The position numbers were made by a program, and so were the translations under genes. 64,000 bases of DNA from a virus: positions 110,249-174,248 of the IMG/VR virus record IMGVR_UViG_3300032163_000001. One strand, 5' to 3'. Shown piece after piece: positions 8,203 to 42,141 of the stretch; within the stretch, counting starts at the first letter, position 1; the number at the start of each line of letters is the position of its first letter. The notes under the pieces were generated by a model. It ran no database searches, was not told where the DNA came from, and worked only from the letters and a program-made list of their open reading frames with translations.

Positions 8203-8263
8203 CATAACCTTCCTTATTTTCTCTCTTCATTCTAAAAAAAAAGAGAAAGGAGGTGATATATAA

Positions 8264-8515
8264 ATGGGAGAAATGAAAGTTATGATTCCTTTTAATGATC
8301 CAGAACATCCAAAAGAAGCAGGTCACATCAAAGAAGTATGGGATTCCTCTAAACCTGAAGAAGTACAACATGCGAAGGAAACTTATGAAAAATTTACTAA
8401 AAAAGGCTATCTTGCTTTTAGGGTAAAAAAGAATGGAGAACCTGGAGAAAAGATAAGTAAGTTTGATGCAGATGCTGAAATGATAATTCTCCAACCAATG
8501 TTAGCAGGAGGATAA
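8264..8515 (+). CDS. Hypothetical protein
   Basis: SD AAAGGAGG. 83 aa. Confidence 0.4.
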   Translation: MGEMKVMIPFNDPEHPKEAGHIKEVWDSSKPEEVQHAKETYEKFTKKGYLAFRVKKNGEPGEKISKFDADAEMIILQPMLAGG

Positions 8516-8516
8516 T

Positions 8517-9362
8517 ATGCAAGCTATAATGCTAGCTGCAGATGGTTCATCTGAACTTAATTGTATTGATAAGGAATATCCTTGTTTCAAAAGAGTGAAA
8601 TTACCTGAATCTTCTTACTACAAAGAAGATCAAGATCAAGATAGTCTTGTAGAAGTAGGAGTTATTCAATACAATCAAGTTGGTAGAATTTCATCAACAA
8701 ATTATTTGTTTGAACCAGAAATTAATAGGGATTCTGATTTAGTAATCTATATAGAAGAAGGAGTAAAGGAGGTGAGTGTAAGAGTGGTTTGTAATAATGA
8801 AACTAGTGATAATTCTTGGAGATATTGGACAAATAATACATACACAGCTTATACGTCAGGTGCATTTGTCCAATGGACAACTGATAGTGCTACAGCTAAT
8901 GTTGGTGGTTGCACTTTGGTATGTCAGAAACAACAACTCCGTCAAGAAACAGAAGAACAGAAGTGTGAAAGATTAGTTAAAGAAGAGGTAGCTAAAGAAG
9001 CAGTTAGAGTAGCAGCTGAAGAGTTGAAGAAAGAACAAAAGAGACTAAAAGAACTAAGAGAACTGTCTGAAAAGAGAGCTCTTGAACTTCTCTTAGATAA
9101 TCTCGATGGTAACCAAAAAGAAATTTATGAGAAGACCGGTGCTATTCCTGTTAAACCCCCTTCGGGTAGGCAGTATCAAATAGATGGTAAAAGTGGAACC
9201 ATATATGAATTGAATAGCGCTGGCAAGAAAATAAGTTCAATTTGTATTCATCCTCAACAAAGCTTTCCTCTTGCAGATTCTATCCTTGCTAAAAAATTAA
9301 TGTTTGAAATATGTGAAGAAGAAGCAAGGAAAATAGGTAATTTTTCTGATTGTAGAGCTTAA
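8517..9362 (+). CDS. Hypothetical protein with C-terminal coiled coil
   Basis: SD GGAGGATAATATG. 281 aa. Confidence 0.45.
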   Translation: MQAIMLAADGSSELNCIDKEYPCFKRVKLPESSYYKEDQDQDSLVEVGVIQYNQVGRISSTNYLFEPEINRDSDLVIYIEEGVKEVSVRVVCNNETSDNSWRYWTNNTYTAYTSGAFVQWTTDSATANVGGCTLVCQKQQLRQETEEQKCERLVKEEVAKEAVRVAAEELKKEQKRLKELRELSEKRALELLLDNLDGNQKEIYEKTGAIPVKPPSGRQYQIDGKSGTIYELNSAGKKISSICIHPQQSFPLADSILAKKLMFEICEEEARKIGNFSDCRA

Positions 9363-9396
9363 ATAAGAACTTAAAAAGAGGATTGTTAATACTAGC

Positions 9397-9478
9397 ACAG
9401 TAGGAATTGATAGCGGAAAATATGAGGGAGGATTTCCTATTGTGCTGTTTTCCTCCAGGTTCCTCCCTCATTTTTTTT
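9397..9478. terminator. Bidirectional terminator between convergent genes (nested hairpins GCACAGTAGGAA...TTCCTATTGTGC and ATGAGGGAGG...CCTCCCTCAT + T-run)
   Basis: Perfect 10-12 bp stems. TTTTTTTT follows on + strand and an A-run precedes. Confidence 0.6.
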
Positions 9479-9482
9479 GTTT

Positions 9483-10577
9483 CTAACACGGTAATTTATT
9501 TATAATCTCTTTATTTATTTTTTGTAATAAGAGTTTCCATTCATCTCTGTTAGAGTTAGTTTTAGCATGAGTAGAATGATTTAACCAGATTAGATTTTCT
9601 CTTGAGTCGTTTTGTTTGTTATAGTCTATGTGATGCAGGTGAGCTTCATCTGTTAACAACTCTTCTGTAATTGGATCTATGTTGTTTTGTTCTTGTTTGA
9701 TTTGACTTCGAAAATCTATGTTGAAGAATTTTTCTGTGTAGGGTGCAAATCTTTGTTCTCTATCTTCTATCCATCGATAGTTGTTTGGTCCAGTTCTTTT
9801 TTCTATAACTTCTGGAATTAGTAGTGGACTTTTATACCCATATTTCTCAAACACCTTTTCTTCAGACTTCTTTCTAACTTCAGGGTTAGACATAGCATGT
9901 TTAACTCCATATCTTTCTAAGTTAGTATTTTCTCTTCTCTCTTTAAACTCTTCAACTTGAGAAGGATTTTCTACTCCATATTTTTGAATACAAGTTTCTT
10001 TCTTCTTTTCTTTAATTTTAGATTCTCTTCCCGGATGTCCTTCTTCATAGTTCTTTTCCCAAGTATTTAAACACCTTTCCATAATATCAGGATTTGACAT
10101 CGCGTGTTTAACTCCATATCTTTCTAGATTAGTATTTTCTCTTTTCTTCTTAAATTCTTCAACCTGAGATGCATTTTTAACTCCATATTTCTCTAAAAAT
10201 GTTTGTTTACTCTTTTCTCTGATTTCTCTCCTCTTCATCGCATTATCCACACCATAGCGTTCTAAGTTCGTTCTTTTTGATTTTAAAGGATTGTTATAGG
10301 CGGGAGTTCCATATTTCTTTATTTTTGCTTCTTTCACTAGATTTTTATGAAATTCACTTTTCTGTACACATTTCCCATGGTATTTAAAGTATCCTCTTTC
10401 CATACAATCGAAGTTAGTAGCCTTTTTGCAAACTTCACAAAAACCTTCGTCATCTTTTTTTAAATATAAATCATAATATTCTTGAACTTTACTATGAAGT
10501 TTTTGAATATGCGTAGATAAGCTTCTTAACAATTCAAAATTCTTGTTACAAATTCTACATACTTTTTCACTAGACAT
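9483..10577 (-). CDS. HNH homing endonuclease with tandem YGV-repeat DNA-binding modules
   Basis: C-terminal HHIDYNKQNDSRENLIWLNHSTH is an HNH motif. Three or more repeats of ExYGVxNxSQVEEFK..RENTNLERYGVKHAMSNP. N-terminal Cys cluster. Confidence 0.65.
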   Translation of the reverse strand: MSSEKVCRICNKNFELLRSLSTHIQKLHSKVQEYYDLYLKKDDEGFCEVCKKATNFDCMERGYFKYHGKCVQKSEFHKNLVKEAKIKKYGTPAYNNPLKSKRTNLERYGVDNAMKRREIREKSKQTFLEKYGVKNASQVEEFKKKRENTNLERYGVKHAMSNPDIMERCLNTWEKNYEEGHPGRESKIKEKKKETCIQKYGVENPSQVEEFKERRENTNLERYGVKHAMSNPEVRKKSEEKVFEKYGYKSPLLIPEVIEKRTGPNNYRWIEDREQRFAPYTEKFFNIDFRSQIKQEQNNIDPITEELLTDEAHLHHIDYNKQNDSRENLIWLNHSTHAKTNSNRDEWKLLLQKINKEIINKLPC

Positions 10578-28460: not shown

Positions 28461-30566
28461 CTACCATTCTACTAAAACTAAACCCGAACCTCCTGATGCG
28501 CCTTCACCGTGGGTATGCCCAGCCAGACATCCGCCACCCCCTCCACCACCTGCTCCACTATTTGCGGCAGCTGACTCACCATCGTCTCCATTACCATTAG
28601 AAGACGATGCACCATCACCGCCGGCTCCTCCATTTCCATATAAACCTCCACCACCACCACCACCACCAAAACCATAACTCAGAAAGTTTAATCCACCTCC
28701 ACCGCCAAATCCTATAGTAGATAATGGAGAAGGAAACGGACCTCCGTCACCAGCGGATCCTGTAGGATACCCACTATTACTACCCGCACCTCCACCACTT
28801 CCACCAATTAAAAACACAGTAAAAGCACCAGACTGTCCAGATCCATTGGGATATTGTCCTCCAGAACCAGCTAAATATTGGGGCCCGCCGCCGTTTCCAC
28901 CGTTACCGCTTTCATAAAGTGAACCTTCATGACCTGCTTTTCCTCCATCTGCTATAACAAAGCTGCCAAAAGATGACAGTGATCCAATAGTTTCTTCTGC
29001 ACCTCCAGTTCCAACGATTACAGAAATTTCACTACCTGGAGTTACGTGGACAGGATACCTATACACTACAGCTCCTGATCCTCCGGCACCGCCACCGGAA
29101 TTACCTGGCGGAGCGCCAGCCCCACCGGGTCCACCTCCACCTCCACCACCTAAACAAGTTACATTAACTAGTGATATATTATTTGGAACAGTAAAAGTGC
29201 CACTTACTGTAAATAATTGAGATTGGTTAGACACAGCGTTTCCTCCTGATCTCGAAATTTCATACCAAACACCATTGTAATTTACTAAAGTCAAAGTACT
29301 TCCTGTAACTGCCGTAAAATTTACACCTCCAGAAAGAACTATCAAACTTGGATTATGAACTAAAGTAGTATTACTATTTCCAAAATACAGTGTAATCATT
29401 ATTCCTGAATTGTTTCCTGAAGGAGCACCTGTAAAATTAATTATATTAGTAGACACTGTATTTTGTACTGCAAGAACCCCACAAACGTGACTACCTGATG
29501 ATAAAATGTTCGGAGTAGAAGAATTATCATTAACAATTTTAACAAGGTTTGTATATCCCATAGATAAGTCAAGAGTAGATATCGCTATTCGTAAACTATC
29601 AGAATTATTAATACTCCTAGTAGATGTATAAGAAGGTAGTAAATTTCCTCTAGCTGATTTGCCTATAAAATTTCTCAAATAATCTGTCTCTTGATCTAAT
29701 GCACTAGCAGCAGCAGTCAGACTTATTCCTTGAGTTGCTATTGTAGTAATACTAGTATAATTAGGATCTATATCAGATGCACCAACTGATCCTACATAAG
29801 TTCTTAGTTTAGTTAACTGATCTTCTAAATCTAGACTAAGTATTCCAATACCATCATGATTTAGAACTGGGTGAGAATACATATCATTTGCTAACTGTGT
29901 TAAATCTAATGAACTTCCTCCACCACCTCCACCAAAAGGTTGCCAACCACTAGAAGATCCATAATATACATCATCACTACTTCTAACAATAATAACTCTT
30001 GCGTAATCTCTAAGGAGATCAAATGTTGGTATGTTATCTTCTAAACCAAGGTATAGTTTTGAATAAATTCTTTTAACTGTAGGATTCTCAGGGTCTAAGT
30101 CACTTATAGAAACAGTTGAAAATTGTTCTCCTGGCAAGTTTACAAGAATAGCTTTTAGAAAAACATAAAGACCAGTTGCAAAAGGATTTCTTTGAGAAGG
30201 TTTTAGTATTCTAATTGAAGGCCTTGGTGCTGGTCTAGCCTTTTCATAAACATAATGCATTACTATATAATAGTATCCTGGTTCGTTCCAATATCCCCCA
30301 ACTCCAGGAGAAATATAGTAATCTCCATCTGCCATATCTACTGTACACTCTGATATGGTAATAAAAACGTCATCTTTGAAGAAAGAACCTGATGAGATAA
30401 GTATTTCACTTGTGGAGTCAGGAACTAAACTTACGTCAATTTTATCAGCAGAAAAGATACAATTCTCATAGTTGGAAACTAACCTTGTTAGTCTATTAAC
30501 TACGTTACTGTGGTAACTATCAAAGGGAGAAACTGTACAAGTATGAACAGGATATGGATTTCCCAT
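28461..30566 (-). CDS. Glycine-rich tail fibre protein
   Basis: 701 aa. C-terminal half dominated by GGGGGG/GNGG tracts typical of phage Gly-rich fibre proteins. Confidence 0.5.
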   Translation of the reverse strand: MGNPYPVHTCTVSPFDSYHSNVVNRLTRLVSNYENCIFSADKIDVSLVPDSTSEILISSGSFFKDDVFITISECTVDMADGDYYISPGVGGYWNEPGYYYIVMHYVYEKARPAPRPSIRILKPSQRNPFATGLYVFLKAILVNLPGEQFSTVSISDLDPENPTVKRIYSKLYLGLEDNIPTFDLLRDYARVIIVRSSDDVYYGSSSGWQPFGGGGGGSSLDLTQLANDMYSHPVLNHDGIGILSLDLEDQLTKLRTYVGSVGASDIDPNYTSITTIATQGISLTAAASALDQETDYLRNFIGKSARGNLLPSYTSTRSINNSDSLRIAISTLDLSMGYTNLVKIVNDNSSTPNILSSGSHVCGVLAVQNTVSTNIINFTGAPSGNNSGIMITLYFGNSNTTLVHNPSLIVLSGGVNFTAVTGSTLTLVNYNGVWYEISRSGGNAVSNQSQLFTVSGTFTVPNNISLVNVTCLGGGGGGGPGGAGAPPGNSGGGAGGSGAVVYRYPVHVTPGSEISVIVGTGGAEETIGSLSSFGSFVIADGGKAGHEGSLYESGNGGNGGGPQYLAGSGGQYPNGSGQSGAFTVFLIGGSGGGAGSNSGYPTGSAGDGGPFPSPLSTIGFGGGGGLNFLSYGFGGGGGGGGLYGNGGAGGDGASSSNGNGDDGESAAANSGAGGGGGGGCLAGHTHGEGASGGSGLVLVEW

Positions 30567-30685: not shown

Positions 30686-30718
30686 TATATATATTAATTC
30701 TTGGAAAGGAGGAACACC
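30686..30718 (+). promoter_or_regulatory. Conserved bipartite motif copy 3: TATATATATTAATT-N5-GAAAGGAGGAACACC, placed 55 nt before the MVP-like gene's own SD
   Basis: See copy 1. No ORF follows the internal GGAGG here, so GGAGG is part of the element rather than an SD. Confidence 0.5.
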
Positions 30719-30773
30719 GTATTACTAATTTTTTTACACTCTAAAACTAAACTAAAAGAAGGAGGAAAAAACT

Positions 30774-33245
30774 ATGGCGGCTCCACAAGAAAGTAATGTA
30801 GTATTATCACCAAATGAGTTTGTATTTGTTCAAGACTCTACGAAAGGAGAGATTAAGTGTTTAGCAGGACCTTACAAAACAGGTCTTACTGGTGAAGATT
30901 TTCCAGTCATATTTAATAAAGATTCAAAAAAGTTTGAAAAAGTAGATCTTTACAAAGCTACTCAACTTTTTGCTATTGCACCTGAAGGTTGGTATATTAT
31001 TTTGAAAAATCCAGCTGGACAATACCCTGATCCAGGAAAAGCAAATATCCCTATTCCACTTAATATGGGCAGAAAAATTAACATTCCAGGTCCAGTTAGT
31101 TTTGCTTTATGGCCTGGTCAAATGAAAAAAGTAGTCCAGGGCCATCACCTTCGATCAAATCAATATTTATTAGTTCGAGTTTATGATGAAGGTGAAGCTA
31201 TAAAGAACTTAGATAAAGCAATTATCAAACGAGTAGAAACTGAACCACCAGAGAAAAAAGAAGCTCCTCAAGAATCTAAAGTAGAGAAAAAAGAAGAAAT
31301 CAAAAAATCTGAGTTTGCTGTATCAGATTTAACAATGGGAAAACTTCTAATTATTAAAGGAACAGATGTAGCATTCTATATTCCTCCAACTGGTATTGAA
31401 GTAGTAGCTCCAGAAGATAATAAATATGTTAGAGAAGCAGTAACTTTAGAAACTTTAGAATACTGTATTCTTCTAAATGAAAATGGCAATAAAAGATATA
31501 TCAAAGGTCCAGCTGTAGTTTTTCCAGAACCAACTGAAACTTTCATTCAATCTAATGGAAAGAAAGTATTTAAAGCATATGAACTCAACGAAATATCTGG
31601 TCTTTATCTTAAAGTCATCTCAGCATATAGTGAAGATGATAAAGAATATGAAGTAGGACAAGAATTATTTATCACTGGTGCAGAACAAGCGATTTATTAT
31701 CCAAGACCAGAACATGCGATTATAAAATATGGAGATCAAGAAATCCATCATGGAATTGCTATCCCAGCTGGTGAAGGTAGGTACGTCCTCGATAGACTTA
31801 GTGGGTCAATTTTATTAAAGAAAGGTCCATGTGTTTTTTTACCAGATCCGAGACACCAAGTAATTGTTAGAAGAATTTTAGATTTAAGTACAGTTGATCT
31901 ATGGTATCCGGGGAACCTAGAAGCTAGAGAGTATAACTCTTTTTTATTGAACATGCTGCAAGAAACTAGGGGTTTTGCGCCAAAAGAGGGAGTTAATTAT
32001 ATAGACCAACAAATGTATTCTTCTAGAGTAGCACCTCAAGCAAAAGGTTTTGTGGCTGACGAAGTCAAACGAAAAAATGTATACACACCCCCTCGAACAA
32101 TCACTTTAGATACTAAATATGAAGGAGTTCCAATCATCAAAGTTTGGACCGGTTATGCTGTATTAATAACTAGTAAAACTGGAAAAAGAGAAATGGCTAT
32201 TGGACCAACTCCGGTTTTACTACAATATGATGAAACTTTAGAATTTATGGAACTTTCTACAGGAACTCCAAAAAGTGATACTAACTTACATAAGACTGTT
32301 TACCTTAGAGTGTTAAACAATAAAGTTTCAGACATAGTCAAAGCTGAAACTAAAGATCTTTGTCCCATTAGTATACAAGTTTCATATCGAGTGAATTTTG
32401 AAGGAGAAACTAGTAATTGGTTTAACGTTGAAAACTATGTAAAGTTCTTAACAGATCATTTAAGGTCTTTAATTAGAAGTAATATTAAACAATATGGAAT
32501 TGAAGAGTTCTACTCAAATTCAATTTCTATTGTTAGAGATTGTGTTTTGGGAAAGTCAGATGGAGAAAAGAGACCAGGAAGAGCATTTGATGAAAATGGG
32601 ATGAGAGTTTATGAGTGTGAAGTTTTAAACGTTGAAATTAGTAATGATACTGTTAAAAGGATGTTAACTGATGCTCAAACTGTATCTGTACAAAACACAA
32701 TTAACTTAGCAAAGAGCAGAAGTAATCTATCATTTACGACAGAAAATGAAGATATCAAAAGAAAAATTGAAGGAGAAGTACATAAAAGTTTTATTAGTTC
32801 CTCAGATATAAAGATTGATTCAACAAAGAGGATACTAATAGAAAATTTAGAAAAGATTAAATCATCATATAAAGAAACGATTGAAAATATTAACTACTCT
32901 TTAGAAAAAGTCAAATTAACGGAAGGTGTTACAACTCAAGAGGTTTCCAATCTTAAAATTCGATCCGACTATGATTATAAAGTCAATCAACAAGACCAAA
33001 TCTTAGGACTAGAAAAACTTAAAGCAGAAAACGAAGCTGAAATTAAGAAAGTTGAAGCCGTCTCAAAAGATTTAATTGCAGCTCTGCAGTCTTTTGGTGA
33101 TCAGATTGCTCTAGAGAAAGTTACTCAATCACTAGCTCCTCTGGCTTTACTTGGTGGAGGTTCAATAGCTGACGTAGTTAATAAACTACTAAAAGGAACA
33201 GTTCTTGAAGGGATTTTGGCTAAAAAAGTTAAAGAAGTAACGTAG
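30774..33245 (+). CDS. Major vault protein (MVP) homologue: N-terminal MVP-repeat domains, SPFH/band-7 shoulder, C-terminal cap-helix-like coiled coil
   Basis: Repeats such as LYLKVISAYSEDDKEYEVGQELFITGAEQAIYYPRPEHAII resemble human MVP [41 protein letters not shown]. Shoulder MAIGPTPVLLQYDETLEFMELSTGTPK ... ISIQVSYRVNFE ... FNVENYVKFLTDHLRSLIRSNIKQYGIEEFYSNSISIVRDCVLG resembles MVP [27 protein letters not shown] ... LQLQLAYNWHFE ... [44 protein letters not shown]. C-terminal ALQSFGDQIALEKVTQSLAPLALLGGGS resembles MVP [28 protein letters not shown]. Length 823 aa versus 893 for human MVP. Confidence 0.7.
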   Translation: MAAPQESNVVLSPNEFVFVQDSTKGEIKCLAGPYKTGLTGEDFPVIFNKDSKKFEKVDLYKATQLFAIAPEGWYIILKNPAGQYPDPGKANIPIPLNMGRKINIPGPVSFALWPGQMKKVVQGHHLRSNQYLLVRVYDEGEAIKNLDKAIIKRVETEPPEKKEAPQESKVEKKEEIKKSEFAVSDLTMGKLLIIKGTDVAFYIPPTGIEVVAPEDNKYVREAVTLETLEYCILLNENGNKRYIKGPAVVFPEPTETFIQSNGKKVFKAYELNEISGLYLKVISAYSEDDKEYEVGQELFITGAEQAIYYPRPEHAIIKYGDQEIHHGIAIPAGEGRYVLDRLSGSILLKKGPCVFLPDPRHQVIVRRILDLSTVDLWYPGNLEAREYNSFLLNMLQETRGFAPKEGVNYIDQQMYSSRVAPQAKGFVADEVKRKNVYTPPRTITLDTKYEGVPIIKVWTGYAVLITSKTGKREMAIGPTPVLLQYDETLEFMELSTGTPKSDTNLHKTVYLRVLNNKVSDIVKAETKDLCPISIQVSYRVNFEGETSNWFNVENYVKFLTDHLRSLIRSNIKQYGIEEFYSNSISIVRDCVLGKSDGEKRPGRAFDENGMRVYECEVLNVEISNDTVKRMLTDAQTVSVQNTINLAKSRSNLSFTTENEDIKRKIEGEVHKSFISSSDIKIDSTKRILIENLEKIKSSYKETIENINYSLEKVKLTEGVTTQEVSNLKIRSDYDYKVNQQDQILGLEKLKAENEAEIKKVEAVSKDLIAALQSFGDQIALEKVTQSLAPLALLGGGSIADVVNKLLKGTVLEGILAKKVKEVT

Positions 33246-33253
33246 TAAAAGAA

Positions 33254-33289
33254 TAGGGAGTAAAGGATTAATGTTTCTTTACTCCCTAT
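33254..33289 (+). promoter_or_regulatory. Perfect 11-bp hairpin (AGGGAGTAAAG-loop-CTTTACTCCCT) between the MVP-like and kinase-like genes, sequestering the upstream ATG 33271
   Basis: Read directly. No T-run, so more likely an attenuator/processing structure than a terminator. Confidence 0.35.
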
Positions 33290-33306
33290 TAGAGGGAGGG
33301 GGGCGT

Positions 33307-34074
33307 ATGAATTTAAAAACTTTTTTAGATAGATTCTTTAATAGGTTTAGATTATTTCAGTCTGAAAAACTTTCTCTAAAAACTCTTGTATCAGAATACA
33401 AAAAAGTCGTACATTACATTTTTCTGATACAAGAGAAAGATAAAAAAAGGATTTCAGAACATTTACATGAATGTTTATCAAATTTATCTACTCTCAGATT
33501 TTATACAGATATACTGGAGGGAAACAAATTAAGCAAAGAAACAGATTTTGCAGTAATAGTTGAACTAATAGATTCAACTATCAAACGTATAAACACTCTC
33601 ATTAGTATTACCAGACCAATTGTTATAGATCAGCTCGATATTGGTAGATCAATACATTTTCTTTGTAGGCATTTCGAGAGAAAAGGAAATGTTCAAATTA
33701 AGATGATATCACAAAATAATAAAGAAATTTTCATTACTGACAAAGTTCTAAAGATATCTATATATAGAGTTGTACAAACGTGTATATGGAAATCTATCAA
33801 AGTTTTTGGAGCTACTGTTATTTATGTTAGTTTAGAAAATTCACTCAAAATAACTGTAGAAGATAATGGAAAAGAAGAACCAGTAAATAAAGAATTTTAC
33901 AAAACTTTAAATTTATGGATAAACGAGTTAGTAAAACTTACACGAGGGTCAATCAAAGAAGAACGAACCAAACAAGGTACAAATAAAACAATTATCATAT
34001 GGAATATGGAGAAAATAAAAAGTGAGATAAACCAGTTAATAAAAAAGGAGGAAAACTATAATGAAAACAAATAA
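33307..34074 (+). CDS. Soluble HisKA_3-type histidine-kinase core (DesK/LiaS-like H-box + GHKL ATPase), no sensor/TM domain (start set at ATG 33307 after GGGAGGGGGG)
   Basis: H-box KKRISEHLHECLSNLSTLRF resembles DesK RERIARDLHDTLGQKLSLI. G1 box ITVEDNGKEE (D-x-G). 256 aa. Confidence 0.5.
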   Translation: MNLKTFLDRFFNRFRLFQSEKLSLKTLVSEYKKVVHYIFLIQEKDKKRISEHLHECLSNLSTLRFYTDILEGNKLSKETDFAVIVELIDSTIKRINTLISITRPIVIDQLDIGRSIHFLCRHFERKGNVQIKMISQNNKEIFITDKVLKISIYRVVQTCIWKSIKVFGATVIYVSLENSLKITVEDNGKEEPVNKEFYKTLNLWINELVKLTRGSIKEERTKQGTNKTIIIWNMEKIKSEINQLIKKEENYNENK

Positions 34075-34345
34075 GAAAAAAATGATGGCGATGTTGACAG
34101 AATTTAGTGTATCAACACCTCAGGCAAAGAATGTATTCCTAGTTGGAGATTTTAATCAATGGAATCCAAGTACACATCCATTGAAACAGAAGAAGGGAGG
34201 AATATGGAAGATTACTCTTGCTTTAGATCCAGGGAAACATGAGTATCGATTTCTCATAGATGGACAATGGATAAACGATGTACATTGTTCTTCTTTTGTT
34301 GAGAATCCATTTGGTACAAAGAACTGTTTAAGAATTGTGAGATAG
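34061..34345 (+). CDS. Stand-alone CBM48 / AMPK-beta glycogen-binding-domain protein
   Basis: NVFLVGDFNQWNPSTHPL...GGIWKITLALDPGKHEYRFLIDGQWINDV matches the CBM48 signature (V.L.GSFN.W......L......W.....L..G.H.YKF.VDG.W..D). SD AAGGAGGA. Confidence 0.65.
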   Translation: MKTNKKKMMAMLTEFSVSTPQAKNVFLVGDFNQWNPSTHPLKQKKGGIWKITLALDPGKHEYRFLIDGQWINDVHCSSFVENPFGTKNCLRIVR

Positions 34346-34389
34346 TTCTTCAATCGAAGATAAGGAAAGGAAGGTGAAACCAAAAAATT

Positions 34390-34417
34390 AAGGGGTGACT
34401 TTCAATAGTCACCCCTT
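34390..34417. terminator. Bidirectional terminator (AAGGGGTGACT-ttcaat-AGTCACCCCTT) closing the MVP cassette and the convergent gene
   Basis: Perfect 11-bp stem, A-run upstream and T-rich downstream. Confidence 0.6.
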
Positions 34418-34481
34418 AGTAACATAAATGTAACTGTAATTAGTAATTAATTTGTATTTTGTATTTGTTCATCTTATTTAG

Positions 34482-35186
34482 TTAAATTAGTTTTCTATGT
34501 TCTAAATAAGTTTTTACATCTTCAACAGTAGGATCAATTTTGTTTATTTCTATTATTATCCAACCATCTCTCTCAATCTTATGGTTCCTATGAATATCAG
34601 GCATACCATGGTTATGCCAAAACGTTTTTGGGAATTCTAAATCTATTTTCTTAAGAGGAATGCAAATATCTGTAACAATTCGATAGTCTAGAGACCCGGA
34701 TAGAGAAACTTTATCAATCATATAATTGTTAATAACAGTATCAGTTGGAAATAGATTTCTTAGAAATTCTAGAATTTGAAGCTTTCTTGGATGAATCTTT
34801 GGAGCATGTGGAAAGAGATTATTAGTTTTTTGAATTTTAACCTGTTTTACAACTACATTAGCTTTCTTTTCGAGCTTGGTAAGTTCAGGTTTTTTCTCTA
34901 CAACTTCTCTTTCTATATCTAAAACGTCAGTTTGTGTTAAAGTTAGTTTAGTTAAATCAATATCTTCTACAATTGGATTTTCCTCTGTTTTAGAAAATAA
35001 GTTACCCTTCAAATATCTTTGTCTAGCTTTGTATTCTACACTAGTTATCGGACAATCTGGAAATCTCTCTCTATAAATTGATAAAGAAATTCCATGTTTA
35101 TTTTTCAAGTGCGATGGAGTTATAATAGGGAATTCTTCACCACATATCTGACAAACAACTTTTCCCTTATCTGTCACTTTTTCCAT
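34482..35186 (-). CDS. Ros/MucR-type zinc-finger protein with C-terminal nuclease-like domain (homing-endonuclease-like)
   Basis: VCQICGEEFPIITPSHLKNKHGISLSIYRERF resembles the MucR C.ECGK.FK.LKRHL..HH..SPE.YREKW motif. C-terminal DGWIIIEINKIDPTVEDVKTYLEHRKLI resembles DUF559/Vsr-like HE tails. Confidence 0.45.
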   Translation of the reverse strand: MEKVTDKGKVVCQICGEEFPIITPSHLKNKHGISLSIYRERFPDCPITSVEYKARQRYLKGNLFSKTEENPIVEDIDLTKLTLTQTDVLDIEREVVEKKPELTKLEKKANVVVKQVKIQKTNNLFPHAPKIHPRKLQILEFLRNLFPTDTVINNYMIDKVSLSGSLDYRIVTDICIPLKKIDLEFPKTFWHNHGMPDIHRNHKIERDGWIIIEINKIDPTVEDVKTYLEHRKLI

Positions 35187-35242: not shown

Positions 35243-35623
35243 ATGTATCATTATTTAATTACAGTAGGTATTCAAGAAATAGATTCGTCTCTTGCAGGAA
35301 AAATGTATTTAGATAACTTTTTATCATATGATGACAAAGCAAGAAAAAATGTGGAGTCTTGTCAAAAGTTGTCACAAGATCATCTGTTTAAAACCACTCC
35401 AGAACAGTCTGCTGAAATATTTGACTGTAGTAGATTATTAAATGACTTACAAATGATACTAATAAGATGTAAAGTTCAAAACACAATTTTACTACACTAT
35501 ATATCTGAAGATCAATTAGATAAATGCTTTTTCGAAGAATGGGTAATGGTGAACTCTTTAGAAGAACTTAAAAAAGCTCAAGTGGGGAAAGGAGAGGTTC
35601 TCAAAGATGGACATAATTTATAG
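35243..35623 (+). CDS. Hypothetical protein
   Basis: SD AAAGGAGAAGAAATG. 126 aa. Confidence 0.4.
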   Translation: MYHYLITVGIQEIDSSLAGKMYLDNFLSYDDKARKNVESCQKLSQDHLFKTTPEQSAEIFDCSRLLNDLQMILIRCKVQNTILLHYISEDQLDKCFFEEWVMVNSLEELKKAQVGKGEVLKDGHNL

Positions 35624-36017
35624 TTGGCAAGAGTTCGAAAACGACTGTTACGATATCCTAAGACTTTTGTCTAAACTAAAAGAAGTCAAGAACATTTTTG
35701 GAATTCCCAGAGGAGGATTGATACTAGCTGTTAGACTTTCACATTTACTATCAAAACCAGATCACAAAGTACCGTTAATTTTGAGAGATGAAGAAATAGA
35801 ACCAGAAACTCTTATAGTCGACGACATTTCAGACTCAGGAAAAACTTTACTAGAATACTGCTCTTACTACCAAACCAGTTTATCTATTACATTATGGATA
35901 TGTAACGAAACAAAATTTACACCATCGTTCTTTTTAAATACAAAAAACAAGGGTGATTGGATAGTATTTCCATGGGAACAAAACTACCGGGGAACTGCTG
36001 TTGATCCTGAATTGTAA
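35607..36017 (+). CDS. gpt: Xanthine-guanine phosphoribosyltransferase-like (Gpt, type I PRTase)
   Basis: FGIPRGGLILA and PRPP-binding LIVDDISDSGKTL. C-terminal DWIVFPWEQ resembles E. coli Gpt TWIEQPWD. 136 aa. Confidence 0.65.
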   Translation: MDIIYSWQEFENDCYDILRLLSKLKEVKNIFGIPRGGLILAVRLSHLLSKPDHKVPLILRDEEIEPETLIVDDISDSGKTLLEYCSYYQTSLSITLWICNETKFTPSFFLNTKNKGDWIVFPWEQNYRGTAVDPEL

Positions 36018-36131: not shown

Positions 36132-36671
36132 ATGAAACATCTTGGTCATATTATTGTTCAAATCTTTAAAGTGGCTGTAGCATTGTTCCTAATCTTGGCG
36201 ATATTTTCTGTGGTCCATGATTATCTAAACTTTTGTGTTCCTGTTCAATTTCAAGACGAACTAGAGAATACTAAAGTTCTTTTAACAAAGATGAAAGTGG
36301 ATCCAAAGAAACTTAATGAGTTTTCAATAGCTGTAAAAACAGCAAGTCGTCTAACTGGATTTGCAGAAGAACTTCTAATAGCTCTGGTCTATACGGAATC
36401 GAGATGGATAACAACCGCTTGTTCTCCTAAGGGCTATAAAGGATTAGCACAAATTCCATATGATTTATGGGATCCTGATATTAATGTTTTGACTGGAGCT
36501 AAAGAACTAGCGAAAAAACTGATTCAATCAAAAGGTGATCTAAAACAAGCTCTAATGCGATACAAAGGTTATAAAGATTTAGACTGTAAGGAGGGAAAAG
36601 AAGATGCAGAAAGAGTTATTAGAATCGCAAGAGATCTTAGAAATTCGAAAGTCCGCGGCGGAGAAATCTGA
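36132..36671 (+). CDS. Lytic transglycosylase (SLT-domain) with N-terminal TM anchor; endolysin or virion-associated lysin candidate (start set to ATG 36132)
   Basis: ALVYTESRWITTACSPKGYKGLAQIP matches the SLT E.S....A.S..GA.GLMQI motif. N-terminal hydrophobic IFKVAVALFLILAIFSVV. SD AAGGAGGAG. Confidence 0.65.
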   Translation: MKHLGHIIVQIFKVAVALFLILAIFSVVHDYLNFCVPVQFQDELENTKVLLTKMKVDPKKLNEFSIAVKTASRLTGFAEELLIALVYTESRWITTACSPKGYKGLAQIPYDLWDPDINVLTGAKELAKKLIQSKGDLKQALMRYKGYKDLDCKEGKEDAERVIRIARDLRNSKVRGGEI

Positions 36672-37823: not shown

Positions 37824-38360
37824 ATGCATTTAGTTGGGATCATCGGTAAAAAAGGAAGTGGGAAATCCGAGTGTTCAAAAATTTTGTGTGAAAAATATAG
37901 TTTTCAGAGGACTTCGTTCGCTGATAAACTTAAGCAAACTGTATCAGATCTTTTCGATATTCCCTTAAACTTTCTTTATGATCCCAAACTTAAAGAAACG
38001 TATGATAATAGATGGGGAAAAACTTACAGAGAAATTATGCAACTTTTTGGTACCGAAGTTGGTAGATGTATTTATAATGACATATGGGTGTATCACGTTG
38101 AGAAACACTTATTACAAAATCCTGATCTTAGTTTTGTTATAGATGACGTTAGATTTAAAAATGAAGCTGTTTTAATCAAAAAACTCAATGGTTTATTAAT
38201 AAAAGTAGTGCGACCATCTAATGACATTCAAAAAGATTTTCATAAATCAGAAACAGAACAAGATGAAATTGAAGTAGATATAACTATCTTAAATAACTCA
38301 TCTAAAGAAGATCTATATAATACAGTCAATCAAGTTTACCTTGAATTTTGTAACAAATAA
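37824..38360 (+). CDS. Deoxynucleoside monophosphate kinase (T4 gp1-like)
   Basis: P-loop GIIGKKGSGKS. FADKLK, REIMQLFGTEVG and LIKVVRP align with T4 gene 1 (VIHVVRP). Confidence 0.65.
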   Translation: MHLVGIIGKKGSGKSECSKILCEKYSFQRTSFADKLKQTVSDLFDIPLNFLYDPKLKETYDNRWGKTYREIMQLFGTEVGRCIYNDIWVYHVEKHLLQNPDLSFVIDDVRFKNEAVLIKKLNGLLIKVVRPSNDIQKDFHKSETEQDEIEVDITILNNSSKEDLYNTVNQVYLEFCNK

Positions 38361-38428
38361 AATTATATCAGATATCTATAGCACTAAAACTATTGTAAAG
38401 ATAATACGTTGAAAGGGAGGTGAAAACA

Positions 38429-39352
38429 TTGAGCTTAAATGAATTAATAGGTAGAAAATCAGTTGGTCGTCCTTGTGTCCCTACTTTAAATTTCATAGTA
38501 GGAAATAGACAATGTAACATGGAGTGTAAATATTGTATTTCTAAAATGACGAAGGCTGAGTTATCTAAACGAGGAGAGGTTTCTCCTTTATGGTATAGAA
38601 ATAGACGTTTAGCTTTTAGCGTAGCAAAGAAGTTTAGTACTGATACAGTGTTAATCACAGGAAAAGGAGAACCAACTATCTGGAAAACAGAATTACTAGA
38701 TACTATAGCAAGAGCTAGTGACGAAGGATTTATTACAGAACTTCAAACAAATGGAGTTTTATTAGATGAATCTTATTGTATTCATCTTGCTGGAGCAGGT
38801 CTTAATACTATAGCTATTAGTAGAGTCACAGTTGATACAGCTACGAATAATTGGATATGTGATCCTATACATTTTAGTACTCCAAATTTACACCAGTTAA
38901 TTCCAATGATCCAAAGACTTGAAATAAAGATGAACATTCGAATTACTTTTGTAGCTATGAAAGGTTACAATGACTCAGTTGAAAAGATAGAGAAAACATG
39001 TCTTTGGGCTTTATCGAATGGAGTTAAACAAGTTACTATTAGAAGAATGGGGATGCCAAATCTTAGTTCAATTGAAAGTTTAGATAGTGCATTCGAGATC
39101 GAAAAATTTGTAACAGATAACCTTGTTCCAGATGAAGAATGGAAAAAGATCATAGATTTCTTTATGAAAGAATACACTATTTTAAGAGTTTTTGACTGGG
39201 GCTCAATCAGCTGGTCTATTAATGGAGTCCAGTGTTTAATAGCTGATTGTTTAACAGTGCCAGGATTAGATGGCACAATCAGGTATCTTATATATTATCC
39301 TGATGGTCATTTAAGATATAGTTGGGAACACGATTCTACAATAATTTTTTGA
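38429..39352 (+). CDS. Radical SAM enzyme (CxxxCxxC; viperin/MoaA-like core), function unknown; start uncertain (TTG 38429 or GTG 38420)
   Basis: RQCNMECKYC, GKGEP glycine motif, LQTNGVLLDE and LNTIAISRVTVD resemble viperin IVSNGSLIRE / LDILAISCDSFD and MoaA. Confidence 0.6.
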   Translation: MSLNELIGRKSVGRPCVPTLNFIVGNRQCNMECKYCISKMTKAELSKRGEVSPLWYRNRRLAFSVAKKFSTDTVLITGKGEPTIWKTELLDTIARASDEGFITELQTNGVLLDESYCIHLAGAGLNTIAISRVTVDTATNNWICDPIHFSTPNLHQLIPMIQRLEIKMNIRITFVAMKGYNDSVEKIEKTCLWALSNGVKQVTIRRMGMPNLSSIESLDSAFEIEKFVTDNLVPDEEWKKIIDFFMKEYTILRVFDWGSISWSINGVQCLIADCLTVPGLDGTIRYLIYYPDGHLRYSWEHDSTIIF

Positions 39353-39386: not shown

Positions 39387-39460
39387 TCAGGAGTCGTCTA
39401 ATTTAGGCAGGACATTTGACTTTGAATCAAAAAATAAAGGTTCGATTCCTTTCTCCTGAA
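39387..39460 (+). tRNA. tRNA-Gln (anticodon UUG)
   Basis: Acceptor TCAGGAG/CTCCTGA perfect 7 bp. D-arm GTCT..GGAC. Anticodon arm TTTGA-CTTTGAA-TCAAA (U33, anticodon TTG, A37). T-arm AAAGG-TTCGATT-CCTTT. No encoded CCA. Confidence 0.75.
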
Positions 39461-40602: not shown

Positions 40603-40890
40603 ATGGCTAAATTTATAGACTTTGTTGATAAGAAATTTATATGTGATAACTGCAAAAAAGTTATTCAAGGAAAAGAAATTGTCTTAGAATTAGCTCCAAC
40701 TAATTTTGATATATTAACTCCTCTTCACCCACTCATTTTTATTGATAAAGATGGGATTATCAAAGGAGGTTCTAAATTTGCAGACGGGTCTATTGGGGAC
40801 CAAATATTGAACTGTCCAAAATGTAATTACCCTCATTTATATGGATTTACACCATATGAAGAGAAAACATTAAAAGAGATGGGTCGGTAA
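40603..40890 (+). CDS. Small zinc-ribbon protein
   Basis: CDNCKK...CPKCNYPH. The stop codon overlaps the tRNA 5' end. Confidence 0.4.
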   Translation: MAKFIDFVDKKFICDNCKKVIQGKEIVLELAPTNFDILTPLHPLIFIDKDGIIKGGSKFADGSIGDQILNCPKCNYPHLYGFTPYEEKTLKEMGR

Positions 40891-40957
40891 GCTTAACTGG
40901 TTAAACTGCTGGACTCCAAATCCAGTCTTCGGGGTTCGAATCCTCGCCGGCCTGCCA
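40881..40957 (+). tRNA. tRNA-Trp (anticodon CCA)
   Basis: Anticodon arm CTGGA-CTCCAAA-TCCAG. T-arm CGGGG-TTCGAAT-CCTCG. Acceptor GGGTCGG/CCGGCCT (2 G-U pairs). Discriminator G and encoded CCA. D-arm is atypical. Confidence 0.65.
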
Positions 40958-40977: not shown

Positions 40978-42141
40978 ATGATAATTAATTCGATTCTTGA
41001 CAACGATTTATACAAGTTCACAATGCAACAAGCCGTTTGCCAACTGTATCCATCTGCTCACGCTAGATACGAATTTATTAACAGAGGCAAAACGATATTT
41101 CCACCTGACTTTGATCGTAAATTAGAAAGTGAAGTTAGATATTTTAGTGAATTTAAACTTGGTAAATATGAAAGGCATTTTCTTAATGATATCTATTTTC
41201 TTTATCCTCCCTATATAGACTTCCTTGATGGTTATAAATATAATCCAAGCGAAGTTCAAATAGAACAAAAGCATGGGGATTTAAAGTTAATAGTTGAAGG
41301 TCCTTGGTATAGGGCTATTTTATGGGAAGTACCTCTACTTGCTTTAATCAGTGAACTGTACTTTAAAGAAATAGGGGATATTGGTCCTTTCGCAGGTTAT
41401 GAATCAATAGCTAAAGGAAAAGCAGCTAGATTAAGAGATATTGGTGCTAAATTTGCTGACTTCGGAACTAGGAGAAGGTATTCCTATGAAGTTCAAAACC
41501 ATGTCATTGGGGCTTTAGAAAGTGGAGGAGGTATCTTCTTTAATGGAACTAGTAACGTTTATTTTGCTATGCAACATCAAGTTAGGGCAATAGGCACTCA
41601 GGCGCATGAGTGGATGATGTTTCATGCGTCACAATATGGTTTTCATCTAGCTAACCAGATTTCGATGGAAAAATGGGTGGACACTTATCAAGGAGACTTA
41701 GGTATTGCTTTAGCTGATACTTATACTTCAGATGCTTTTTTCAAGTCGTTTAATACAAAGTTCTCTAAACTTTATGATGGCGTGAGACAAGACTCTGGAG
41801 ATCCAATAGAATTTGCAGATAAAGCAATTAAACATTATGAAAAATTAAGAATAGACCCAACAACTAAAACCATTGTTTTTAGTGATGGGTTAGATGTAAA
41901 CAAAGTAGAAGAAATTGAGAAACACTGTAGAGGAAAGATTAGGACTTCCTACGGGATAGGGACTAACCTAACGAATGACGTAGGAGTCAAACCTTTAAAT
42001 ATTGTTATAAAAATGACTGCGTGTAAATCTACTCTTAGTGATCCTTGGACTAATACATGCAAATTGTCTGACGTTCCCACTAAATATACTGGAGATCCTG
42101 AAATGATAAAACTATGTAAACAAGTTTTGGAGATACAATAG
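40978..42141 (+). CDS. pncB: Nicotinate phosphoribosyltransferase (PncB)
   Basis: DNDLYKFTMQQAV, GPWYRAILWEVPLLALISE, FGTRRRYSYEVQ, IGTQAHEWMMFH, VRQDSGDP and KPLNIVIKM align motif-for-motif with E. coli PncB. SD AGAGGAGG. Confidence 0.8.
   Translation: MIINSILDNDLYKFTMQQAVCQLYPSAHARYEFINRGKTIFPPDFDRKLESEVRYFSEFKLGKYERHFLNDIYFLYPPYIDFLDGYKYNPSEVQIEQKHGDLKLIVEGPWYRAILWEVPLLALISELYFKEIGDIGPFAGYESIAKGKAARLRDIGAKFADFGTRRRYSYEVQNHVIGALESGGGIFFNGTSNVYFAMQHQVRAIGTQAHEWMMFHASQYGFHLANQISMEKWVDTYQGDLGIALADTYTSDAFFKSFNTKFSKLYDGVRQDSGDPIEFADKAIKHYEKLRIDPTTKTIVFSDGLDVNKVEEIEKHCRGKIRTSYGIGTNLTNDVGVKPLNIVIKMTACKSTLSDPWTNTCKLSDVPTKYTGDPEMIKLCKQVLEIQ

What the first reader, a model, noticed from the sequence alone, without database searches (positions are those of the whole stretch)
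30686..34417. Self-contained plus-strand cassette: MVP-like + sensor-less HisKA_3 histidine-kinase core + stand-alone CBM48 domain
The cassette is bounded upstream by one copy of the conserved TACATATATTAATT…GAAAGGAGG element and downstream by a perfect-stem bidirectional terminator (34390-34417). It encodes three genes:
- the MVP-like protein;
- a 256-aa protein with a DesK/LiaS-type H-box (KKRISEHLHECLSNLSTLRF) and a GHKL G1 box (ITVEDNGKE) but no membrane/sensor domain;
- a 94-aa protein that is essentially only a CBM48/AMPK-beta glycogen-binding domain.

None of the three is a canonical phage function. A soluble orphan kinase core could phosphorylate, or act as a phosphatase on, a host NarL/LiaR-family regulator. 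CBM48 suggests targeting to a polysaccharide (glycogen, cell wall glycan) or to the vault-like shell. The grouping suggests a functional unit: a vault-like compartment with a cargo/adaptor and a signalling enzyme. A perfect hairpin (33254-33289) between genes 1 and 2 hides an alternative start and may set the expression ratio.
Basis: partly seen in the sequence, partly recalled or inferred. Interest (0 to 1): 0.85.

Follow-up and report, generated by a model that had tools for sequence, protein, structure and literature searches.

The report
Phage accessory island: vault protein, pseudokinase, glycogen-binder
A giant bacteriophage carries three bacterial-type genes side by side (a major-vault-protein homolog, a catalytically dead histidine-kinase core and a small glycogen-binding domain), but related phages carry them separately, so this is a mix-and-match accessory island, not one machine.

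Summary
The 823-aa protein is a full-length bacterial-type major vault protein (MVP). The 94-aa protein is a stand-alone CBM48 with AMPK-beta-like sugar-contact residues. The middle protein (255 aa, start 33307) has a DesK-like DHp+CA histidine-kinase fold.

The "kinase" has lost nearly every ATP/Mg2+ motif residue: N-box Glu to Thr, Asn to Lys, second G1 Gly to Glu, G2 Gly to Asn. Its only relatives share this loss, and one has also lost the phospho-acceptor His. It is a pseudokinase, most likely a non-catalytic binder of a host HisKA_3 kinase or NarL-type regulator.

Comparative genomics does not support a functional unit. The trio occurs only in very close relatives. A sister lineage has the pseudokinase alone at the same locus. 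About 25 other jumbo-phage MVP loci and two bacterial MVP loci have neither partner. The CBM48's closest homologs are bacterial chromosomal genes next to peptide deformylase.

Phage MVPs were already reported in 2023. The flanking promoter-like motif and both hairpins are real. The terminator's U-tract serves the convergent minus-strand gene, and the "hidden alternative start" is not conserved.

The only new item is a small phage-specific pseudokinase family. Interest is moderate to low.

The parts
30686..30712 (+). Promoter-like phage motif (ACTATATATATTAATT-N4-GGAAAGGAGG) upstream of the MVP gene
   Evidence: Core ATATATTAATT: 5 exact copies (3430, 6215, 30689, 36069, 63151), all + strand and intergenic, against 0.36 expected. 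The stretch AGTCTTGrTTACTATATATATTAAT is invariant in relatives L026 and L028. It does not fit sigma-70 spacing (and inspection). Promoter function is inferred.
30774..33245 (+). Bacterial-type major vault protein (MVP) homolog, 823 aa, preceded by SD AAGGAGG at 30759-65
   Evidence: Pfam MVP_shoulder 3.1e-27 and Vault_3 1.3e-6. phmmer to human/rat MVP 5.5e-10, collinear 471-689 to 477-707. More than 6800 homologs, about 50% identical in bacterial MAGs. The AF2 model is confident only for the shoulder (516-622) and a 137-residue cap helix. The top 12 Foldseek hits are all vault MVP, over 543-588 columns.
33252..33290 (+). Stable intercistronic hairpin directly after the MVP stop codon (perfect 14-bp core, 33252-33265/33277-33290; 16 pairs in the MFE fold; no U-tract)
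   Evidence: dG -23.7, z -4.5. The stem is identical in L021 and L027, with one loop change. No covariation is available. A role as attenuator or 3'-end stabiliser is inferred.
33307..34074 (+). Sensor-less, degenerate HisKA_3-type histidine-kinase core (pseudokinase), 255 aa
   Evidence: NCBIfam MctS 7.9e-14 and UhpB 3.9e-7 over the kinase core. phmmer gives 3510 hits. AF2 pLDDT 86.6; the fold is closest to DesKC, HK853 and DivL. Motif audit: H54 kept, E158T, N162K, H166V, G190E, G202N, R208L, G225T.
34061..34345 (+). Stand-alone CBM48 / AMPK-beta-like glycogen-binding domain, 94 aa, overlapping gene 2 by 14 nt
   Evidence: Pfam AMPK1_CBM 1.5e-13 and CBM_48 1.7e-12. In the alignment to the AMPK beta-2 CBM, FNQW/FNNW, YRF/YKF, DGQW/DGQW and FGTKN/LGTIN match. 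Stand-alone bacterial homologs of 93-99 aa are 60-70% identical.
34387..34420 (.). Perfect-stem hairpin terminator between the cassette and the convergent gene 34482-35186
   Evidence: The U-tract lies on the minus-strand RNA only. Two compensatory pair changes (A-T to G-C, A-T to T-A) in L028 keep the stem.
28461..30566 (-). Left anchor of the island: glycine-rich tail-fibre-like gene, transcribed divergently
   Evidence: Pfam Gly_rich_2 2.1e-9; PHROG tail fibre families. Conserved as left neighbour in L026 and L028-30.
34482..35186 (-). Right anchor of the island: Ros/MucR-type zinc-finger protein, convergent
   Evidence: Pfam ROS_MUCR 4.1e-5, just below its cutoff. Conserved as right neighbour in L021, L027 and L028-31 at 56-98% identity.

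Best explanation
The region is a variable accessory-gene island of a jumbo myovirus. It sits between the tail-fibre gene and a Ros/MucR-like gene and is probably driven by a phage-specific promoter motif that precedes several plus-strand gene blocks. It holds three bacterial-derived genes that are co-oriented and probably co-transcribed but have separate histories and are not an obligate unit.

(1) A full-length bacterial-type MVP. It presumably self-assembles through its SPFH-like shoulder and long cap helix into a cage-like homo-oligomer. Its role is unknown, as it is in bacteria.

(2) A histidine-kinase-derived pseudokinase. It keeps the DesK-like DHp hairpin and CA fold but cannot bind Mg-ATP. 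It most likely acts without catalysis, by heterodimerising with a host HisKA_3 kinase or sequestering a NarL/LiaR-type response regulator, and so blunts a host stress response during infection.

(3) A host-derived stand-alone CBM48 that binds host alpha-glucan (glycogen).

Shown here: the domains, the motif loss, the synteny pattern and purifying selection. Inferred: the promoter role, MVP assembly, the decoy mechanism and glycogen binding.
For: Phage context: tail sheath, major head protein, portal, DnaB and DNA polymerase. The MVP matches the megaphage records LR756500/501.

Island variability at one locus:
- window: MVP + pHK + CBM48;
- L021: the same plus an 81-aa ORF;
- L027: the trio, with MVP 84%, pHK 50-52% and CBM48 70% identical;
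- L028-31: pHK alone between the same tail-fibre and Ros-like anchors.

MVP without partners: 20 + 3 phage loci and 2 bacterial chromosomes.

CBM48 origin: the closest non-phage homologs (66-69%) lie in 42-45% GC bacterial contigs, including a Syntrophaceae MAG, always upstream of def.

Pseudokinase: motif audit. Relatives P0123 and P0125 share the losses, P0125 is His to Ser, and the replacement segment LNKE..L.L.I..LV.L..G.IK is conserved within the family. dN/dS is 0.32-0.52, so the gene is under purifying selection but is the most relaxed gene of the locus. No receiver domain was found in the 64-kb window.

Precedents: phage PIT4 targets host two-component systems (PMC10714779, abstract as listed). 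DivL is an HK-derived pseudokinase that signals by binding; its fold is also among the matches.
Against: No binding partner is identified, and the decoy mechanism is pure inference.

The trio stays intact between lineages whose pHK has diverged to 50% identity. Genes 2 and 3 overlap by 14 nt in the window. Some lineage-specific cooperation, especially between pHK and CBM48, is therefore not excluded.

Only 64 kb of a contig of at least 185 kb was examined, so a response regulator could lie elsewhere.

ATP binding by divergent GHKL domains cannot be ruled out from sequence alone.

The MVP N-terminal repeats were modelled poorly (pLDDT below 50), so cage assembly is unverified.
Confidence: 0.55

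Rival explanations
1. The three genes form one functional unit: a vault-like compartment (MVP) with a CBM48 cargo/adaptor and an encapsulated or attached signalling enzyme.
For: The genes are co-oriented and tightly packed behind one promoter-like motif and before one terminator. The trio is retained in L021/L022 and in the more divergent L027. Eukaryotic vaults do house enzymes, PARP4 and TEP1 (PMC12280208; bioRxiv 10.64898/2026.05.01.722283).
Against: L028-31 keep pHK without MVP or CBM48 at the same locus. 23 other phage MVP loci and 2 bacterial MVP loci lack both partners within 6-8 kb. Bacterial CBM48 homologs are never next to an MVP or HK. MVP has about half the synonymous divergence of its neighbours, which suggests a separate history. 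pHK and CBM48 share no terminal peptide, and the C-terminal helix of pHK is not conserved in P0123 or P0125.
Confidence: 0.1
2. Gene 2 is a catalytically competent orphan enzyme. It would act as a kinase, or as a dedicated phosphatase, on a host NarL/LiaR-type response regulator.
For: The H-box His is retained in the window protein and in P0123. G1 Asp186 and Gly188 are retained. The DHp+CA fold is intact. Many histidine kinases are bifunctional phosphatases (established knowledge; DesK phosphatase-state structures are among the fold matches).
Against: N-box Glu (72/72) is replaced by Thr and Asn (71/72) by Lys. The second G1 Gly, the G2 Gly, R208 and G225 are also replaced, and the ATP-lid region is shortened by about 8 residues. 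Family member P0125 has Ser in place of His. The positions equivalent to the HisKA_3 phosphatase motif DxxxQ read ExxxN, DxxxS and DxxxL, so they are not conserved.
Confidence: 0.15
3. pHK and CBM48 form a two-protein module that is independent of MVP. The CBM48 would dock on the kinase-like domain, as the AMPK beta-CBM docks on the alpha kinase lobe, and tether it to glycogen.
For: The two genes are adjacent, and translationally coupled, in the window and L021 (14-nt overlap). They are also adjacent in L027. The CBM48 is closest to the AMPK-beta CBM among solved structures after one pullulanase.
Against: L028-31 have pHK without CBM48. Bacterial CBM48 homologs have no HK neighbour. The analogy to AMPK rests on recalled knowledge and was not tested.
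Confidence: 0.12
4. The genes are decaying passengers without function.
For: pHK has lost its catalytic motifs and is very AT-rich (26% GC). It is the fastest-evolving gene of the locus.
Against: All ORFs are intact in every relative. dN/dS is 0.28-0.52, below 1. The family keeps its own conserved motif in place of the ATP lid. All three genes have strong SD sequences.
Confidence: 0.05

Closest known systems
Phage and bacterial MVP homologs (Caudoviricetes ctOa11 / ct2Ri15, bioRxiv 10.1101/2023.11.10.566534; bacterial MVPs, bioRxiv 10.1101/872010)
   Same: Length of about 810-830 aa. Vault repeat, SPFH-like shoulder and long cap helix. Closest to bacterial rather than eukaryotic MVPs. No TEP1 or PARP4 partner. 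Variable gene neighbourhood.
   Different: This copy is in a jumbo myovirus whose MVP matches those of the LR756500/501 megaphages at 42% identity. The basic 'keyhole-loop' NAD+-pocket residues of human MVP are mostly not conserved here: 1 of 5.
DesK / LiaS / NarX-type HisKA_3 sensor histidine kinases
   Same: DHp helical hairpin with an ...RI..(L)H(D/E)... H-box, followed by a GHKL alpha/beta CA domain. DesKC is the best structural match.
   Different: No TM or sensor domain. N-box Glu/Asn, G1 Gly2, G2 and the conserved Arg are lost. The ATP lid is shortened. No cognate regulator is nearby. The gene is phage-encoded.
DivL of Caulobacter (histidine-kinase-derived pseudokinase that signals by binding DivK~P)
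   Same: A histidine-kinase fold retained for non-catalytic protein binding. DivL appears among the fold matches (bioRxiv 10.1101/812529, abstract as listed).
   Different: DivL is a HisKA-type, membrane-anchored, multi-PAS protein that has lost the His (Tyr instead) but keeps a CA domain. Here the His is mostly kept and the CA motifs are lost. No homology beyond the superfamily level.
AMPK beta-subunit CBM and the N-terminal CBM48 of GlgB/pullulanase; bacterial stand-alone 'isoamylase early set domain-containing protein'
   Same: CBM48 fold signature with the Trp/Lys(Arg)/Trp/Leu(Phe)/Asn sugar-contact positions. Bacterial homologs of the same 93-99 aa stand-alone size are 60-70% identical.
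   Different: Phage-encoded and not fused to any catalytic or scaffold domain. The bacterial homologs sit upstream of peptide deformylase.
Phage PIT4 (P. aeruginosa phage LSL4), a small early protein that perturbs host two-component systems (PMC10714779)
   Same: Functional analogy only: a phage protein aimed at host histidine-kinase signalling.
   Different: No sequence or fold relation was tested. PIT4 is not HK-derived.

Membership tests
Major vault protein (MVP) | MVP shoulder (SPFH-like) domain | tested here: met
   Pfam PF11978 E=3.1e-27, 95.4 bits against a cutoff of 25, covering profile positions 2-117 of 118. AF2 pLDDT is 70-89 over residues 516-622.
Major vault protein (MVP) | N-terminal vault repeat domains | tested here: inconclusive
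   One Vault_3 match sits just at the cutoff (28.9 against 28.8 bits). There is a weak collinear match of residues 229-351 to human 280-403. Foldseek alignments to vault MVP span 543-588 columns. The AF2 model of residues 66-515 is mostly below pLDDT 50.
Major vault protein (MVP) | Long cap-helix after the shoulder | tested here: met
   AF2 predicts a single helix at 625-761 (137 residues, pLDDT about 75-89).
Major vault protein (MVP) | Assembly into a closed 39-fold half-vault cage | not testable with these tools
   Needs expression and EM.
Major vault protein (MVP) | Basic NAD+/ADP-ribose pocket of human MVP (R504, K506, R507, H509, R511) | tested here: not met
   In the phmmer alignment these positions map to T498, K500, S501, N504 and H506, so only K506 is conserved. 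Loop alignment is uncertain. The source paper notes variable conservation even among animals.
HisKA_3 sensor histidine kinase | DHp domain with a phospho-acceptor His in the H-box | tested here: met
   H54 aligns with the invariant His (72/72). AF2 helices 24-71 and 77-102 form the hairpin. The Pfam HisKA_3 model itself gives no hit, and family member P0125 has Ser at this position.
HisKA_3 sensor histidine kinase | N-box Glu/Asn that coordinate Mg-ATP | tested here: not met
   E158 (72/72) is replaced by Thr and N162 (71/72) by Lys. P0123 and P0125 have the same class of change.
HisKA_3 sensor histidine kinase | G1 (DxGxG) and G2 (GxG) boxes and the ATP lid | tested here: not met
   D186 and G188 are kept, but G190 is Glu (68/71 Gly), G202 is Asn (70/71) and G225 is Thr (68/71). 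The lid is about 8 residues shorter.
HisKA_3 sensor histidine kinase | Overall DHp+CA fold | tested here: met
   AF2 pLDDT 86.6, pTM 0.72. Foldseek probability 1.00 to DesKC (5iuk, 3gie, 3ehj), HK853 and the VraS CA domain. NCBIfam MctS 7.9e-14 over the core, far below the family's full-length cutoff.
HisKA_3 sensor histidine kinase | Input (TM or sensor) domain and a cognate NarL-type regulator gene | tested here: not met
   Only about 23 N-terminal residues (one amphipathic helix) precede the DHp. No receiver domain is detectable in the 64-kb window with CheY, NarL or P0129-REC queries. The rest of the phage genome was not available.
HisKA_3 sensor histidine kinase | Phosphatase motif DxxxQ next to the His | tested here: not met
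   The window protein reads H-E-C-L-S-N, P0123 H-D-C-I-S-S and P0125 S-D-C-L-S-L. The motif definition comes from recalled literature on NarX.
CBM48 / AMPK-beta glycogen-binding module | Domain signature above curated thresholds | tested here: met
   PF16561 51.2 bits (cutoff 26.8); PF02922 47.9 bits (cutoff 22.4). PDB hits to AMPK beta-1/2 CBM, pullulanase and GlgB.
CBM48 / AMPK-beta glycogen-binding module | Carbohydrate-contact residues (AMPK beta-1 W100, K126, W133, L146, N150; numbering recalled) | tested here: met
   The alignment to the beta-2 CBM gives W/W, K to R, W/W, L to F and N/N.
CBM48 / AMPK-beta glycogen-binding module | Actual binding of glycogen or alpha-glucan | not testable with these tools
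   Needs a polysaccharide pull-down or ITC.

The most novel reading that the evidence does not exclude
In this phage lineage the MVP homolog builds a vault-like cage inside the infected cell. The pseudokinase and the CBM48 protein are its lineage-specific cargo or adaptors, for example tethering the cage to host glycogen granules or trapping a host response regulator inside it. That would be a virus-made vault compartment with dedicated clients.
Probability: 0.07. Interest if true: 0.85.

Novelty: new variant of a known kind. Interest (0 to 1): 0.36.

Why it matters
Vault function is a long-standing puzzle, so any genetically linked client of an MVP would be valuable. Here the linkage fails the comparative test, and this locus does not open that question.

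The new item is narrower. It is a small phage-restricted family of histidine-kinase-derived pseudokinases: three 50%-identity clusters among 1.84 billion representatives. The family is under purifying selection and keeps the DHp/CA fold while it has lost the ATP-binding motifs. If these proteins act as decoys against host HisKA_3/NarL signalling, which often governs envelope stress, they would be a new way for phages to silence two-component systems.

The locus also adds to evidence that MVP homologs are common in jumbo and mega-phages, including the 735-kb record LR756501. It shows a phage borrowing a host glycogen-binding module.

Tried and rejected
- PHROGs and PADLOC scans of the three proteins gave no hits.
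- Single-sequence scans of IMG/VR for pHK and CBM48 relatives found none.
- phmmer of pHK against PDB sequences gave only spurious eS25 hits. The fold search was needed.
- A search for a receiver domain in the window gave only noise.
- An Rfam scan for a vault-RNA-like or other RNA found only two tRNAs.
- NAD+/ADP-ribose 'sponge' idea for the phage MVP, prompted by the nearby NAPRTase and by NAD+ binding in the human MVP shoulder: the pocket residues are not conserved, so the idea was dropped as unsupported.
- Codon-bias explanation for the low dS of MVP: MVP ranks 25th of 70 on a capsid/sheath-referenced index with ENC 38, which is unexceptional. Not supported.
- The full-length AF2 model of MVP was poor (pLDDT 54.5), so the repeat count and lateral interfaces could not be assessed.
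- An exact look-up of the window's own MVP contig failed, so the sample and the rest of the genome stay unknown.
- A sigma-70 reading of the upstream motif was rejected. No -35/-10 pair at proper spacing was found, and promoter-like hits were no more frequent than in shuffled sequence.

Full report
**Setting**

The window is part of a large tailed phage. It encodes a tail sheath, major head protein, portal, DnaB helicase and family-B-like DNA polymerase and two tRNAs. The MVP gene's only matches among deposited phage genomes are the 462-735 kb megaphage records LR756500, LR756501 and LR756503, at 42% protein identity. A sequence identical to the MVP is recorded on a 185.6-kb contig.

The cassette lies between a divergently transcribed glycine-rich tail-fibre-like gene (28461-30566, minus strand) and a convergent Ros/MucR-type zinc-finger gene (34482-35186, minus strand).

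**Checking the observation**

- Three plus-strand ORFs are present: 30774-33245, 33271/33307-34074 and 34061-34345.
- The conserved start of gene 2 is ATG 33307, 8 nt after GGAGG. The 50%-identical relative P0123 starts at the equivalent Met. In that relative the ATG inside the hairpin loop is out of frame and meets a stop after seven codons. The 'hidden alternative start' is therefore not a conserved feature.
- The upstream element is real. The core ATATATTAATT occurs five times in 64 kb against 0.36 expected. All copies are on the plus strand, all are intergenic and all lie ahead of plus-strand genes. Four of the five are followed within 3-5 nt by GAAAGGAGG.
- The stretch AGTCTTGrTTACTATATATATTAAT is invariant in relatives L026 and L028. 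It does not fit sigma-70 geometry. I read it as a phage-specific promoter class, which is an inference.
- Both hairpins are far more stable than shuffled controls.
- The downstream hairpin carries its U-tract only on the minus-strand transcript. It is first of all the terminator of the convergent gene. Two compensatory base-pair changes in L028 show that the stem is under selection.

**Gene 1: the MVP homolog**

- It has a full-length MVP shoulder domain (3.1e-27) and one vault repeat at threshold.
- It matches human and rat MVP collinearly (5.5e-10).
- It has more than 6800 homologs. Most are about 50% identical proteins of bacterial MAGs (Desulfobacterales, Myxococcota, Anaerolineae and others), which JGI annotates as 'major vault protein'.
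- The AF2 model is poor overall (pLDDT 54.5). It is confident for the shoulder and for a 137-residue cap helix.
- The twelve best PDB fold matches are all vault MVP chains, over 543-588 aligned columns. The next matches are SPFH cage formers: flotillin, HflK/C and stomatin.
- Phage MVPs were described in a 2023 preprint, which also noted that their neighbourhoods differ. Bacterial MVPs were described in 2019.
- The basic NAD+ pocket residues of human MVP are mostly not conserved here.

**Gene 2: a histidine-kinase-derived pseudokinase**

- Pfam alone would have failed it: HATPase_c E=0.083, HisKA 0.18, no HisKA_3 hit.
- NCBIfam full-length kinase models align to its whole length: MctS 7.9e-14 and UhpB 3.9e-7.
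- An exhaustive phmmer search of 1.84 billion representatives gives 3510 hits. They are almost all C-terminal cores of HisKA_3 kinases.
- An AF2 model is confident (pLDDT 86.6, pTM 0.72). It shows an N-terminal helix, a DHp hairpin, an alpha/beta CA domain and an extra C-terminal helix.
- Its best PDB matches are DesKC, then HK853, DivL and the VraS CA domain.
- A column audit against 72 canonical homologs shows that the catalytic apparatus is gone: N-box Glu (72/72) to Thr, Asn (71/72) to Lys, His166 to Val, second G1 Gly (68/71) to Glu, G2 Gly (70/71) to Asn, Arg208 (68/71) to Leu and Gly225 (68/71) to Thr. The lid is also shortened.
- The phospho-acceptor His is kept, but the neighbouring Asp is Glu.
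- Only two other 50%-identity clusters belong to the family. P0123 (52%) has the same substitutions. P0125 (28%) additionally has Ser in place of the His.
- All three members share their own conserved segment where the lid and G2 box used to be.
- dN/dS is 0.32 against the 96% relative and 0.52 against the 50% relative. The gene is under purifying selection but is the fastest-evolving gene of the locus.
- No receiver domain is detectable in the window.
- The simplest reading is a non-catalytic, binding-only derivative of a host kinase. It could be a decoy for a HisKA_3 kinase or a NarL-type regulator. This mechanism is inferred, not shown.

**Gene 3: the CBM48**

- It passes both CBM48 models comfortably.
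- It aligns with the AMPK beta CBM with the sugar-contact Trp, Lys(Arg), Trp, Leu(Phe) and Asn positions in place.
- Its closest non-phage relatives (60-70% identity) are stand-alone 93-99 aa proteins on bacterial chromosomal contigs of 42-45% GC, including a Syntrophaceae MAG. They lie among Fe-S, redox and FUR genes, always just upstream of peptide deformylase.
- This suggests capture from a host-like bacterium. Some of these bacterial contigs come from the same ENA accession series as the phage relatives. That is only weak host evidence.

**Is it a unit?**

- The trio is present in the 96% strain variant (L021/L022, which also has an extra 81-aa ORF before the terminator). It is also present in L027, with MVP 84%, pHK 50% and CBM48 70% identical.
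- In the sister lineage L028-L031 the same two anchor genes (57% and 56% identical) and the same promoter-like motif and terminator flank the pseudokinase alone.
- Next-nearest MVP phages (62-63% identity, L023-25) and 20 further jumbo-phage loci have MVP but neither partner within 6-8 kb.
- Two bona fide bacterial chromosomes have a solitary MVP.
- MVP also shows about half the synonymous divergence of its neighbours (dS 0.27-0.28 against 0.54-0.77). This holds against both L026 and L027 and occurs without unusual codon bias. It hints at a separate, more recent exchange history.
- The locus therefore behaves as a mix-and-match accessory island. The pseudokinase is the component found in all three lineages at this locus, whereas MVP and CBM48 are absent from one of them.

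**Verdict**

The domain calls hold, but the active kinase and the vault-plus-cargo unit do not. MVP in phages is already known, and stand-alone CBM48 proteins are common in bacteria. The one new item is a tiny phage-specific family of HK-derived pseudokinases. Interest is moderate to low. The exciting reading, a phage vault with dedicated clients, is not excluded for this lineage but is improbable.

Noticed in passing
window 3430, 6215, 30689, 36069, 63151 (+): ATATATTAATT, usually followed by GAAAGGAGG, occurs 5 times against 0.36 expected. It is found only on the plus strand and in intergenic gaps ahead of plus-strand gene blocks. It is a likely phage-specific promoter class that the minus-strand structural and replication genes do not use.
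   Followed up: partly
window 30774-33245 vs L026 and L027: MVP has about half the synonymous divergence (dS 0.27-0.28) of the flanking genes (0.54-0.77) in two related contigs. Its codon usage is unexceptional. This may reflect recent recombinational exchange of the MVP gene alone.
   Followed up: partly
L021 3044-3289 (absent from window between 34355 and 34356): A 96%-identical strain variant carries an extra 81-aa ORF between the CBM48 gene and the terminator. The window has a clean deletion of about 240 bp, or the relative has an insertion.
   Followed up: no
window 34061-34345 vs L021: All 7 nucleotide differences in the CBM48 gene between the two strains are non-synonymous (6 aa changes, dS = 0). 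The count is too small to be significant, but it is suggestive of diversifying pressure.
   Followed up: no
window 40978-42141 (+), 35607-36017 (+): A nicotinate phosphoribosyltransferase (Pfam NAPRTase 1.8e-62) and a small phosphoribosyltransferase-domain protein are present. This is phage NAD+ salvage, possibly a counter to NAD+-depleting defences.
   Followed up: no
window 37824-38360, 38420-39352, 36132-36671 (+): A dNMP kinase, a radical-SAM protein and an SLT lytic transglycosylase lie in the plus-strand accessory block downstream of the cassette. tRNA-Gln is at 39387-39460 and tRNA-Trp at 40881-40957.
   Followed up: no
window 34482-35186 (-): This convergent 234-aa protein has an N-terminal Ros/MucR-type zinc finger (E=4e-5, just under the cutoff) and an uncharacterised C-terminal half. 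It is the conserved right anchor of the island in all relatives (56-98% identity).
   Followed up: partly
L028 862-895: In the lineage that lacks MVP, the MVP-type SD and ATG are followed by a 10-codon mini-ORF (MVIKFLQKGG) just before the pseudokinase gene. This may be a scar of an MVP deletion or a leader peptide.
   Followed up: no
L001 (LR756501.1, 735 kb) 7992-10421; L002 (LR756500.1) 8001-10484: The largest deposited phage genomes encode MVP homologs (42% identical) in unannotated records. MVP appears widespread in mega- and jumbo phages: 18 further IMG/VR contigs were found.
   Followed up: partly
window 28461-30566 (-): The tail-fibre-like protein has a long C-terminal glycine-rich domain (Gly_rich_2) with poly-Gly runs. 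Its N-terminus is conserved in relatives, while the rest diverges fast (67-70% identity, dS 0.77).
   Followed up: no
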